A stretch of 52,123 nt of DNA, taken from Patescibacteria group bacterium (GTDB taxonomy: Bacteria > Patescibacteriota > Minisyncoccia > Phycocordibacterales > WO2-35-19). The stretch lies in assembly GCA_038065655.1 (NCBI GenBank), contig JBBTQO010000013.1:1-52123 (forward strand), in the 5' to 3' direction. The position numbers were made by a program, and so were the translations under genes. Shown here in pieces: positions 40,507-52,123 of this stretch. Each line of letters begins with the position of its first letter. The stretch's first letter is position 1. The notes beneath the pieces were generated by a model. It ran no database searches. It was not told where the DNA came from and saw only the letters and a list, made by a program, of their open reading frames with translations.

Positions 40507-40605
40507 TTTTTCCAGAGGATGACCCTTGAACTGCCCCTGCCCCAAAGGGTCATCCTCAAATTCCGACCTCACCCCCAACCCCCTCTCCTTGCGAAGGAGA
40601 GGGGG
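40507..40605. repeat. Composite element: family B inverted repeat plus GCG-loop hairpin
   Basis: 13-bp IR (40515-27/40545-57) plus 12-bp IR (40579-90/40594-605); colinear with 51222-51337. Confidence 0.8.
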
Positions 40606-51183: not shown

Positions 51184-51221
51184 ACGATAATTATAACGCA
51201 ATTTAAAAATAACTCACCTTC

Positions 51222-51337
51222 TTTCCCAGAAGATGACCTTTGAAGATTCTGCCCCAAAAGGTCATCTTCGAATTCCTAATCCGACCCCACCCCACTTTCC
51301 TTCGGAAAGTCGCCCCTCACCTTGCGAAGGTGAGGGG
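51222..51337. repeat. Composite element (family B IR plus GCG-loop hairpin), copy 2
   Basis: 13-bp IR 51229-41/51257-69 and 11-bp IR 51313-23/51327-37, with compensatory changes versus 40507-40605. Confidence 0.8.
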
Positions 51338-51388
51338 AAAAATGAAAAATTATGCGTGACCGGATGTGACCAATTTGATTAAATTTTT

Positions 51389-51527
51389 TGTGCTGGCGAC
51401 TAGCTACTTCCCTTACAGGGACTGTCCACTCATTGGACTTTTTGTTTCGTTGCACTCACAAAAACCCTCAATGAGTCTTGCGCTTGGGGCCCCTACCCCA
51501 AGCTCACCCCCAAAAGAGTATCATCGG
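51389..51527 (-). pseudogene. 3' half of a divergent 5S rRNA copy with a ~97-nt hairpin insertion
   Basis: TGTGCTGGCGACTAGCTACTT and CCCCCAAAAGAGTATCATCGG are colinear with 51561-51603 of the intact 5S. Confidence 0.75.
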
Positions 51528-51560
51528 AATTAAAATAGAAATTTAAAAAGTTGAGAACTC

Positions 51561-51672
51561 TGTGCTGGCGGCTACCTACTTTCCCCCAAAGGAGTATCAT
51601 CGGCACTACCGGGCTTAACTTCCGTGTTCGGAATGAGAACGGGTGTGACCCCAGCGTTAAACCACCAACACA
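51561..51672 (-). rRNA. rrf: 5S rRNA (intact)
   Basis: Conserved CCCG..CTCATTCCGAACACGGAAGTTAAG, CCGATGATAC, GAAAGTAGG; 12-bp terminal helix I. Confidence 0.95.
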
Positions 51673-51702
51673 TAACCCTCAACTTTTTACTTTTTAAATT
51701 TC

Positions 51703-51853
51703 ACAGAACTTAACTTCCGTGTTCGGAATGAGCTGAAATGCGAATACTTGGAGCATTTCAGAGCCGGAGCACGACGGTGCGAGGTGGGGTCGCGCAAATT
51801 TTCAGCAGAAAATTATGCGTGACCGGGTGTGACCTCTGCGACAAATCACCAGA
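51703..51853 (-). pseudogene. 5' half of a divergent 5S rRNA copy with a 91-nt hairpin insertion
   Basis: 24-nt identity to the intact 5S (51709-32 = 51614-37); CGGGTGTGACC resumes at 51824. Confidence 0.75.
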
Positions 51854-51950
51854 ACTAAATTTTTAATAAACAAAATTAGAAACCATCAATCAAGATAGTC
51901 CCATAAGGCAGGATGAAAAATTACTAGAAAAAAATAAGTGAATTTTCAAA

Positions 51951-52123
51951 TTTCCTAATAGAATCGGAAAATTAGTACGCCTTGGCTTAATACATTACTG
52001 TACTTACACCTAGCGCCTATCAACGTGATCATCTCTCACGATCCTTAACGATTCCTAATCTTGGGGCCGGCTTCCCTCTTATATGCTTTCAGAGGTTATC
52101 CAAACCCGACTTAGCTACCCTGC
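51951..52123 (-). rRNA. rrl: 23S rRNA, 3' end (partial; 3' boundary approximate)
   Basis: ATTAGTAC...CTTACAC...CCTATCAACGT...ATGCTTTCAG..GTTATC...TTAGCTACC matches the reverse complement of the bacterial 23S 3' domain. Confidence 0.95.

What the first reader, a model, noticed from the sequence alone, without database searches (positions are those of the whole stretch)
51389..51853. Intact 5S rRNA gene nested inside a second, split 5S gene
On the transcribed strand the order is 23S end, 5S 5' half (51853-51703), intact 5S (51672-51561), 5S 3' half (51527-51389). The outer halves appear to come from one molecule. Helix I reads CUGGUGAU/GUCGCCAG versus UUGGUGGU/GCCGCCAG in the inner gene, a G-C to A-U compensatory pair spanning the nested gene. 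Helix II reads GCAGAG/UUCUGU versus GCUGGG/CCCGGU. Only ~4 nt at the three-way junction (loop A) are missing, and that is where the inner gene sits. The inner gene is bounded by its own long stem (51538-51555 pairs with 51678-51702, with a 7-nt duplication bulge). Helix V of the outer copy is broken, so it is probably a relic. This suggests replacement of a 5S gene by insertion of a stem-bounded 5S cassette, or processing of two 5S-like RNAs from one precursor.
Basis: partly seen in the sequence, partly recalled or inferred. Interest (0 to 1): 0.85.

Follow-up and report, generated by a model that had tools for sequence, protein, structure and literature searches.

The report
Working 5S gene inside dead 5S
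In this ultra-small (Parcubacteria/Zambryskibacteria-like) bacterium the working 5S rRNA gene sits, with its own processing stem, inside the pieces of an older 5S gene that is also split by two small dispersed hairpin elements. The same "Russian-doll" layout recurs in related bacteria and I found no published description of it.

Summary
On the minus strand, after the 23S end, the order is:
- older 5S, positions 1-30
- 90-nt hairpin module E1
- older 5S, positions about 34-62
- a 33-nt leader arm, the intact 5S (78 bits, the only Rfam hit) and a 25-nt trailer arm
- a 10-nt linker
- 5S positions 66-86
- 97-nt three-hairpin module E3
- the 5S 3' end

The shell's 5' part, with its leader, is 100% identical to the working 5S ("type B") of five sister species. 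The inner gene ("type A") is 90-96% identical to the working 5S of other species.

Sister genomes with nearly identical flanking proteins carry different 5S types, so 5S alleles move horizontally.

The same nest junction occurs in another genome of the genus and in a metagenome contig that is a three-level doll. Other Parcubacteria carry nests at four or more other positions.

E1 and E3 are dispersed, structured repeats that also sit in partial tRNA copies.

The shell is a mosaic relic: helix V is broken, and its leader and trailer no longer pair.

Best reading: a resident 5S gene was replaced by a stem-bounded 5S cassette and then decayed and was colonised by hairpin modules. How the cassette was inserted is unknown.

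The parts
51951..52123 (-). 3' end of the 23S rRNA gene. The contig ends inside it.
   Evidence: RF02541 129 bits, model positions 2740-2925
51854..51950 (-). 23S-5S spacer, ending in the type-B 5S leader (..TTTATTAAAAATTTAGT).
   Evidence: Nearly identical to the spacer of G008. The same leader precedes the working type-B 5S of G009 and G014.
51824..51853 (-). Shell (older, type-B 5S) piece a: positions 1-30 (helix I 5' strand, helix II 5' strand, start of helix III).
   Evidence: 30/30 identical to the working 5S of G013, G009, G014, G001 and G005
51734..51823 (-). Hairpin module E1. E1a is 51823-51763 and the E1b hairpin with CUCCAAGUAUUCG loop is 51762-51734. It is inserted in helix III/loop C of the shell with a 2-3 nt deletion.
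   Evidence: 92-94% identical copies lie in the 5S shells of G006, G011 and G023. Dispersed copies lie next to partial tRNA copies and at gene ends in many genomes of the family. No Rfam match.
51703..51733 (-). Shell piece b: positions about 34-62 (loop C, helix III 3' strand, loop B, helix II 3' strand).
   Evidence: One difference in 30 from type-B genes. Contains a 24-nt exact repeat of the inner gene.
51670..51702 (-). Left arm: leader of the inner 5S. It forms the processing stem with 51562-51538.
   Evidence: 14-nt perfect inverted repeat. Duplex -22.8 kcal/mol. Homologous, covarying arms in G007, G015, G011, G047 and L106.
51563..51669 (-). Working 5S rRNA gene (type A).
   Evidence: RF00001 78.1 bits, the only 5S hit in the 603-kb genome. 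33/33 consensus pairs. 96% identical to G015 and 94% to G007.
51538..51562 (-). Right arm: trailer of the inner 5S (CAGAGTTCTCAACTTTTTAAATTTC).
   Evidence: The trailer core CACAGAGTTCTCAAC is invariant in G000, G007, G015, G016, G047 and L106-L111.
51528..51537 (-). 10-nt linker TATTTTAATT of unclear origin.
   Evidence: The same TTTTAATTCC is seen in front of the decayed shell remnant of G015.
51507..51527 (-). Shell piece c: positions 66-86 (helix V/IV 5' strand). It is type-A-like, which makes the C.C mismatch in helix V.
   Evidence: 20/21 identical to the inner gene, 21/21 to the type-A gene of L107, and 18/21 to type B.
51410..51506 (-). Three-hairpin module E3 (subfamily E3a), inserted in loop D of the shell.
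   Evidence: Family alignment A1 has 14 copies and 29 pairs, 18 of them with compensatory changes. E3 lies at the same loop-D site in G023, L106 (both levels), L093, L094 and L102. It lies in reverse orientation in loop B of the G008, G017, L090-L103 and L106 shells. It also lies inside 5' partial copies of tRNA-Asn, Ile and Glu.
51389..51409 (-). Shell piece d: 5S 3' end (AAGTAGCTAGTCGCCAGCAC).
   Evidence: GCTAGTCGCCAG is the type-B helix I/V 3' strand. The terminal CAGCAC and the following trailer AAAAAATTTAAT match G004/G019-type genes, so this piece is a mosaic.
51346..51371 (-). Third 5S fragment (positions 20-30, GGTCACATCC) fused to the first 16 nt of E1. It is the truncated remnant of another E1-bearing shell.
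   Evidence: 26-nt repeat, 96% identical to 51834-51809. The same unit, starting exactly at GGTCACACCC, lies downstream of the working 5S in G006, G023 and L107 and upstream of it in G011.
51214..51337 (-). Dispersed intergenic repeat modules CL and M2, with a terminator-like hairpin (51236-51214) before the next gene.
   Evidence: At least 12 copies in the genome. This is the only terminator-like site downstream of the 5S complex.

Best explanation
What is there (shown by sequence comparison): the locus is a two-layer 'Russian doll'.
- The working 5S rRNA gene (type A) carries its ordinary leader-trailer processing stem.
- It lies at the three-way junction (loop A) of an older resident 5S gene. 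That older gene is of the type still used as the working 5S by sister species (type B).
- The older gene is dead. It is cut into four collinear pieces by the inner gene and by two dispersed hairpin modules, E1 in helix III/loop C and E3 in loop D.
- It has also lost loop A, has a broken helix V, and has been patched with sequence of other 5S types.

How it most likely arose (inferred):
- A stem-bounded 5S unit (leader, gene, trailer) from another lineage was inserted into the resident gene and took over its function.
- The disabled shell then decayed, recombined with other alleles, and was colonised by hairpin modules. These modules repeatedly target the same loops of 5S and tRNA genes and are tolerated only in dead copies.
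- The whole region is probably still transcribed as the tail of the rRNA operon. The inner pre-5S would be released at its own stem and the shell pieces discarded.

The enzyme or process that inserts the unit is not known.
For: Identity of the two genes:
- Shell piece 1-30 plus its leader is identical to the working type-B 5S of five sister species. The spliced shell is 92% identical to them and 86% to the inner gene.
- The inner gene is 90-96% identical to the working 5S of G015, G007, G003, G004, G047 and G045.

Horizontal movement of 5S types:
- On the tree of the syntenic downstream VWA protein, type A appears in about six separate places.
- The near-identical host pairs G015/G009 and G047/G053 carry different 5S types.
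- G015 keeps a type-B 3' end with type-B trailer and a decayed E3. This remnant is orthologous to the 3' end of G009's working gene.

Recurrence of the nest:
- The same nest junction (..TGT|GAAATTT.. and ..AAATTTC|) is present in G011 and in metagenome contig L106.
- In L106 the type-A gene is itself split by a third cassette and by an E3. Each of the three levels has its own self-complementary helix I: 9/9 pairs, against 7/9 when levels are swapped.
- Other nests lie at other positions: G008, L090, L093, L094, L102, L103 and L104.
- Rfam sees only the innermost gene in each nest scanned with Rfam: G000, L106, L093 and L094.

Evidence of decay:
- Helix V has a C.C mismatch.
- The outer leader and trailer pair no better than shuffles, 196/500.
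- The shells are truncated in G011, G015 and G008.

Modules:
- E1 and E3 are dispersed, occur in both orientations, and are structured.

Transcription:
- There is no terminator-like site between the inner 5S and the outer 3' pieces.
Against: - Transcription, processing and the assembly itself are therefore supported only indirectly.
- The insertion mechanism is unknown. There is no target-site duplication and no associated enzyme gene at this locus.
- The shell's 5' half differs from working type-B genes at only 1 of 60 positions. So either the event is very recent, or the shell is refreshed by recombination, or it is under selection. This conflicts with a simple 'old orthologous nest' shared with G011 and L106.
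- The 3' pieces are a mosaic, so 'one former gene' is an idealisation.
- At tRNA genes the same modules sit in tandem 5' partial duplications that include upstream flank. That points to a duplication process rather than a cassette insertion.
Confidence: 0.6

Rival explanations
1. Local partial duplications rather than cassette insertion. In this reading the hairpin modules (E1, E3), or the repair of breaks they or homing nucleases cause, generate tandem partial duplications of the 5' and 3' ends of structured-RNA genes. The order AB-ABCD-CD then looks like a nest. The type difference between shell and inner gene would arise later, by horizontal allele exchange and gene conversion.
For: - At tRNA-Asn, Ile and Glu the E3-bearing 5' partial copy includes up to 19 nt of upstream flank. 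It lies in tandem before the intact gene, and no 3' piece was seen downstream.
- In G023 and L094 the E3-bearing 3' piece is of the same type as the working gene.
- G000 piece 51527-51507 is type-A-like.
- G006, G017, G023 and G038 have tandem rather than nested second copies.
- A GIY-YIG nuclease ORF sits between a 34-nt tRNA-Gly 5' copy and the intact tRNA-Gly in this genome.
Against: - In G000 the 5' shell piece has a different leader (type B) from the inner gene and is identical to foreign working genes. It is not a diverged copy of the inner gene.
- In L106 three levels each have their own leader-trailer pair and their own helix I variant, with a type-A layer between two similar layers. 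Local duplication cannot produce that order.
Confidence: 0.25
2. The outer RNA is functional. One precursor would yield the normal 5S and a second, fragmented or expanded 5S-like RNA, with pieces held together by helices I and II and with E1 and E3 acting as expansion segments or excised intervening sequences.
For: - Inserts lie in or next to loops (helix III/loop C, loop A, loop D), where functional rRNA expansions and intervening sequences are tolerated.
- Outer helices I and II are intact and the 465-nt RNA folds as a closed nest (z = -5.5).
- The shell's 5' half is almost unchanged from working genes.
- Expanded but functional 5S rRNAs exist in other prokaryotes (PMC7812874).
Against: - Helix V is mismatched, loop A is missing, and leader and trailer do not pair.
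- Orthologous or related shells are truncated or decayed in G011, G015, G008 and L106 level 1.
- E3 occurs in both orientations in shells.
- Most species of the genus have no shell at all.
Confidence: 0.07
3. Assembly artefact: a chimeric join of 5S reads from two co-occurring strains (type A and type B) in a metagenome.
For: - rRNA operons are often mis-assembled in metagenome bins.
- The window ends inside the 23S gene.
- G008 and G006 have runs of N in their 5S regions.
- Reads could not be checked.
Against: - The longest repeat shared by the inner and outer genes is 24-26 nt, shorter than usual assembly k-mers.
- The same junctions occur in independently assembled, 10-20% diverged sequences (G011, L106).
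- The related G015 locus is identical in two further metagenome assemblies.
- The pieces are collinear and separated by specific modules. They are not simple alternative paths.
Confidence: 0.03

Closest known systems
[quoted passage not shown]
   Same: - 5S-like sequences with large insertions and missing parts lie beside a normal 5S gene at the operon end.
- They are interpreted as pseudogenes.
- The insertions are shared between remnants and appear to move horizontally.
   Different: - Those remnants lie downstream of the normal gene. Here the normal gene lies inside the remnant, in up to three layers in a relative.
- Here the inserts are members of dispersed hairpin-module families that also sit in partial tRNA copies.
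- The lineage is different (Parcubacteria). A survey of 645 CPR 5S genes reported no insertion of >=100 bp (PMC11270868).
Intervening sequences (IVS) of bacterial 23S rRNA, excised at a stem by RNase III without religation (e.g. Coxiella, PMC4990558; Salmonella and Leptospira from general knowledge)
   Same: A stem-bounded insert in a loop of an rRNA gene. The bounding stem is a likely processing site. The host RNA would be left in pieces.
   Different: - In an IVS the host gene stays functional and the insert is discarded. Here the insert is the functional gene and the host gene is the relic.
- Excision was not tested.
Integrative elements that insert into tRNA genes and restore the gene (phages, ICEs, genomic islands)
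   Same: Insertion into a structured-RNA gene leaves a displaced partial copy while a working copy is kept.
   Different: - No integrase and no att-type direct repeat.
- The inserted unit is about 165 nt and consists only of the RNA gene with its leader and trailer.
- The displaced pieces lie on both sides.
Small structured dispersed repeats (REP/BIME, Correia, Rickettsia palindromic elements)
   Same: E1 and E3 are short, non-coding, hairpin-rich and dispersed. They occur in both orientations and are conserved in structure with compensatory changes.
   Different: - No terminal inverted repeats or target duplications were seen.
- There is a strong preference for particular loops of 5S and tRNA gene copies.
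- Conserved loops are combined with variable stems.
- No partner enzyme has been identified.

Membership tests
5S rRNA (RF00001): inner gene | Scores above the Rfam gathering threshold, with helices I-V | tested here: met
   78.1 bits against a cut-off of 38. 33/33 consensus pairs.
5S rRNA (RF00001): outer gene | Recognisable as 5S by the covariance model | tested here: not met
   No hit on the outer pieces even at E<=10 on 761 nt. The spliced sequence could not be given to Infernal with these tools.
5S rRNA (RF00001): outer gene | Collinear 5S sequence and base-pairing after removal of the inserts | tested here: inconclusive
   92% identical to working type-B genes. Helix I pairs 8/9 and helix II 6/6. 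Loop A is missing, helix III has lost 2-3 nt and helix V has a C.C mismatch.
Functional expanded 5S rRNA (Stepanov & Fox type) | It is the only 5S type in the cell, or is intact apart from the expansion | tested here: not met
   A canonical 5S is present. The shell lacks loop A and has a broken helix V.
rRNA intervening sequence (IVS) | Insert bounded by a stem in a loop of the host rRNA gene | tested here: met
   The 14-bp perfect terminal stem extends to about 30 bp with the inner helix I. It lies at loop A.
rRNA intervening sequence (IVS) | Excised from the transcript, with the host rRNA remaining functional | not testable with these tools
Group I / group II introns and self-cleaving ribozymes | Match to a known intron or ribozyme covariance model | tested here: not met
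   No Rfam match to E1, E3 or the arms at E<=10.
MITE / REP-like dispersed repeat (for E1 and E3) | Many dispersed copies in both orientations | tested here: met
   Dozens of hits across 37 of 39 family genomes, on many contigs and in both orientations. In G000 itself there are only one E3a, one E3b, one E1 and two E1 fragments.
MITE / REP-like dispersed repeat (for E1 and E3) | Terminal inverted repeats and a target-site duplication | tested here: not met
   None seen at the 14 E3 junctions listed.
Integrative element at an RNA gene | Integrase gene and att direct repeats flanking the insert | tested here: not met
   No ORF with a function in 51200-51960. The flanks are collinear gene pieces, not repeats.

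The most novel reading that the evidence does not exclude
Parcubacteria would harbour a protein-less, self-replacing class of mobile unit: a complete structured-RNA gene (5S here, tRNAs elsewhere) held at the tip of its own leader-trailer hairpin.
- The unit inserts site-selectively into loop-coding parts of the resident gene of the same kind, kills it and takes over its job, so the host cannot lose the unit.
- Successive invasions build Russian-doll genes.
- The E1 and E3 hairpin modules would be companion elements that recognise the folded loops (as RNA or single-stranded DNA) of the same genes.
Probability: 0.3. Interest if true: 0.9.

Novelty: new variant of a known kind. Interest (0 to 1): 0.75.

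Why it matters
- A single-copy, essential rRNA gene appears to be replaced horizontally and repeatedly in ultra-small bacteria, leaving layered fossils of earlier genes. These fossils give a rare readable record of rRNA gene turnover.
- 5S types scattered across the host tree caution against treating 5S and neighbouring rRNA sequence as vertically inherited in these lineages.
- Standard rRNA annotation with Infernal sees only the innermost gene, which explains why surveys reported no insertions in CPR 5S genes.
- The recurrent use of the same loops by the cassettes and by two hairpin-module families points to a structure-guided insertion or repair process. It may be shared with the nested and partially duplicated tRNA genes of these bacteria. 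That process is not yet described and could be tested.

Tried and rejected
- **Infernal on the outer halves:** nothing at E<=10. The in-silico spliced gene cannot be submitted to Rfam with these tools, so I used alignment and pair counts instead.
- **Metagenome scan for the exact G000 junction** (GTTAAGTTCTGTGAAATTTAAAAAG): 0 hits, and own records may be hidden.
- **Introns or ribozymes for E1 and E3:** no Rfam match.
- **Coding potential:** only short spurious ORFs across the region.
- **Promoter scan:** none found. Terminator scan: none between the inner 5S and the outer 3' pieces.
- **The helix I compensatory pair as evidence of function:** rejected. It reflects type-B ancestry, and swapped pairings are almost as good in G000.
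- **The bounding stem as cassette-specific:** rejected. All 5S genes of the group have one.
- **Simple tandem duplication of the inner gene:** rejected for the 5' piece, because its leader and type differ.
- **Presence/absence polymorphism of an E1 copy between the close pair G015/G009:** the copy tested is shared, so it was uninformative.
- **Non-CPR hits of the double loop-C pattern:** mostly scaffold-join artefacts with an N at the joint.

Full report
**1. What is in the sequence**

The region reads as follows on the minus strand.
- 23S 3' end, 52123-51951 (RF02541, 129 bits).
- A spacer ending in ..TTTATTAAAAATTTAGT.
- 5S positions 1-30, at 51853-51824.
- A 90-nt insert, E1, at 51823-51734.
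- 5S positions about 34-62, at 51733-51703.
- A 33-nt left arm, 51702-51670.
- An intact 5S, 51669-51563.
- A 25-nt right arm, 51562-51538.
- A 10-nt linker.
- 5S positions 66-86, at 51527-51507.
- A 97-nt insert, E3, at 51506-51410.
- The 5S 3' end, 51409-51389.

After this come:
- a third small 5S fragment fused to the first 16 nt of E1 (51371-51346);
- two dispersed intergenic repeat modules (51337-51214);
- a terminator-like hairpin;
- the next gene, a VWA-domain protein.

Infernal finds only the inner 5S (78.1 bits). This holds in the window, in the whole 603-kb genome, and at E<=10 on the 761 nt alone. The arms end in a perfect 14-nt inverted repeat. The 465-nt RNA folds as a closed nest at -170 kcal/mol, z = -5.5.

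**2. Identity of the two genes**

I extracted the working 5S of 38 related genomes.
- The outer 5' piece, together with its leader, is 30/30 identical to the working 5S of five species of the same genus (G013, G009, G014, G001, G005). I call this type B.
- The spliced outer gene is 92% identical to type B and 86% identical to its own inner gene.
- The inner gene is type A. It is 96% identical to G015, 94% to G007 and about 90% to G003, G004, G047 and G045.
- The 'compensatory' A-U pair in helix I and the helix II differences are simply the type-B state.

The shell is not one clean former gene.
- Piece 51527-51507 is type-A-like: 20/21 to the inner gene and 21/21 to the type-A gene of L107. This produces the C.C mismatch in helix V.
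- The last bases and the trailer match a third kind of gene, seen in G004 and G019.
- The outer leader and trailer pair no better than shuffled sequence (196 of 500 shuffles do as well). Working type-B genes give -11 to -14 kcal/mol.
- In G000 helix I discriminates the two layers at one position only.

**3. The bounding stem**

Every 5S gene in this group, nested or not, has a leader-trailer stem that extends helix I. The stem sequences differ and covary between genomes. The stem is therefore the normal pre-5S processing stem. In nests it is longer and runs right up to the shell pieces.

**4. Comparative evidence for replacement and horizontal movement**

The downstream VWA protein is syntenic across the family, so I built its tree.
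- Type A appears in about six separate places on that tree.
- G015 and G009 are almost identical in the flanking protein and in the 23S end. G015 nevertheless has type A and G009 has type B.
- G047 (type A) and G053 (type B) are likewise near-identical hosts with different 5S types.
- G015 still carries a decayed E3 and a type-B 3' end with type-B trailer, about 370 nt downstream of its type-A gene. This remnant is orthologous to the 3' end of G009's working gene.
- Together, G000 (type-B leader and 5' part) and G015 (type-B 3' part and trailer) outline a complete type-B shell around a type-A cassette.
- The G015 locus is identical in two further metagenome assemblies.

**5. Recurrence of the nest**

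- G011 (same genus) has the same left and right junctions (..GTG|AAATTT.. and ..AAATTTC|T..). Its arms covary with those of G000 and its shell is more decayed.
- G008 is the closest relative. Its record is titled Candidatus Zambryskibacteria. It shares the spacer and shell positions 1-19 with G000. It has a different cassette at a different position, between GGAAG and UUAAG, and an E3-family element in reverse orientation.
- A scan of 185,579 species genomes for two loop-C motifs 55-85 nt apart found further true nests. They are in Nomurabacteria (L090, L093, L102, L103), in an unclassified bin (L094) and in Kaiserbacteria (L104). Cassettes sit after GAAGUU, after GAAGUUAAG or in loop C.
- Most non-CPR hits of that scan were scaffold-join artefacts.
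- A metagenome contig (L106, Ga0209542_10082275) is a three-level doll.
  - An outermost 5S contains the type-A cassette at the same junctions as G000.
  - That type-A gene is itself split, after GUUAAGCC, by a third cassette carrying the working gene. It also has an E3 in its loop D.
  - Each level has its own leader-trailer pair.
  - Each level has a self-consistent helix I: 9/9 pairs, against 7/9 when levels are swapped.
- In the four nests scanned with Rfam (G000, L106, L093, L094), only the innermost gene is detected.

**6. The two inserts are dispersed hairpin modules**

- A DNA search of the 39 genomes of the family showed that E1 and E3 occur on many contigs and in both orientations.
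- Fourteen E3 copies align as three hairpins. Of 29 predicted pairs, 18 show compensatory changes. The loops are conserved (GCAAG, CUGUAAG).
- E3 sits at the same loop-D site in nearly all shells. Different E3 subfamilies occupy that site in different shells. In reverse orientation it sits in loop B of other shells.
- Away from 5S, E3 sits inside 5' partial copies of tRNA-Asn, tRNA-Ile and tRNA-Glu placed just upstream of the intact tRNA. One of these copies is in this genome.
- E1 sits in the T-loop of 3' partial tRNA copies and at the ends of protein genes.
- In this genome a GIY-YIG nuclease ORF (Pfam, 49 bits) lies between a 34-nt 5' copy of tRNA-Gly and the intact gene.
- Neither module matches any Rfam family.

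**7. Interpretation**

Shown:
- a working 5S with its normal processing stem lies inside collinear pieces of a 5S gene of another type;
- the shell is damaged and is a mosaic;
- the layout recurs at several positions and in up to three layers;
- 5S types are distributed against the host tree;
- E1 and E3 are dispersed, structured modules with recurrent target sites.

Inferred:
- a stem-bounded 5S unit was inserted into the resident gene and replaced it;
- the dead shell was then colonised by modules and patched by recombination;
- the shell is co-transcribed and discarded.

The main rival is that module-associated or nuclease-associated partial duplications create the flanking pieces, as seems to happen at tRNA genes, with later allele exchange. 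That rival fits the tandem cases (G006, G017, G023). It does not fit the foreign leader and type of the G000 shell or the alternating layers of L106.

A functional shell RNA is unlikely, given the damage and the decay in relatives.

An assembly artefact is unlikely. The longest inner/outer repeat is 24-26 nt, and the same junctions occur in independent, diverged assemblies.

One point is unresolved. The shell's 5' half is almost unchanged from working genes (1 difference in 60). This means a very recent event, refreshment by recombination, or independent site-specific insertions in G000, G011 and L106.

**8. Comparison with the literature**

- Two surveys of CPR rRNA genes used the same covariance model. 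They reported one 5S per genome and no insertion of >=100 bp in any of 645 5S genes (PMC9297842, PMC11270868). That is what one expects if only the innermost gene is detected.
- Stepanov and Fox (PMC7812874) describe 5S remnants with insertions downstream of normal 5S genes in Peptococcaceae and Pseudoalteromonas, and horizontal spread of the insertions. This is the closest published parallel, but it is not nested and not in these bacteria.
- I found no paper describing a working rRNA or tRNA gene nested in its predecessor.
- Earlier notes of this scan report analogous nested tRNA genes and a three-hairpin element in other CPR genomes. I treated them as leads. My own data agree with them for the 5S locus, the E3 structure and the GIY-YIG/tRNA-Gly locus.

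**9. Limits**

- No reads and no RNA data.
- Genome handles are anonymous except where collection scans gave record titles.
- G008 and G006 contain runs of N in the region.
- The histories proposed rest on a single flanking-protein tree and on short sequences.

Noticed in passing
window 51214-51337 (minus strand); also window 40537-40604: Two dispersed intergenic repeat modules. One is CCCCTCACC-loop-GGTGAGGGG, then a variable hairpin, then GGGGTGGGGTCG. The other is a GAAGATGACC..GGTCATCTTC hairpin. There are at least 12 full or partial copies across the genome. In one copy (C17) a 5' CGACCCCACCCC strand closes the element into a cloverleaf-like fold.
   Followed up: partly
G000 contig C1 12837-13250 (outside the window): tRNA-Gly(CCC) is preceded by a 34-nt copy of its own 5' part, then hairpins, then an 89-aa GIY-YIG nuclease ORF (Pfam PF01541, 49 bits).
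   Followed up: partly
G000 contig C19 about 787-1010 (outside the window): tRNA-Glu(CTC) is preceded by a 5' partial copy of itself that carries an E3b-type three-hairpin module. The same arrangement is present at tRNA-Glu in G023.
   Followed up: partly
L006 (G003) about 1735-1830, downstream of its 5S: A hammerhead-like core (CUGAUGA ... GAAAC, with two closed stems) is visible by eye. The Rfam gathering search reported no ribozyme there, so this is unverified.
   Followed up: partly
L039 (G047), L059 (G053), L058 (G052), L010 (G004): These relatives carry a tRNA or a long tRNA-like gene between the 23S and 5S genes. The window's genome does not.
   Followed up: no
L086 (Vicinamibacterales MAG); L089, L097 and L100 (Cyclobacteriaceae MAGs): Outside the CPR, a 5' partial 5S copy lies directly upstream of the intact 5S. 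In Cyclobacteriaceae it carries a small insert. Partial 5S duplication is therefore not confined to Parcubacteria.
   Followed up: no
L112 (G015 C4), L113 (G009 C43), L072 (G053 C2): An E1-like module sits at the 3' end of the same conserved protein gene in three genomes. Some copies are therefore old and fixed rather than recently mobile.
   Followed up: partly
L085 = CAYICK010000001.1 (G011): The public record is titled 'uncultured Candidatus Saccharibacteria bacterium'. It groups in the same genus as a Zambryskibacteria record (G008 = MHWW01000008.1), so the label is probably wrong.
   Followed up: no
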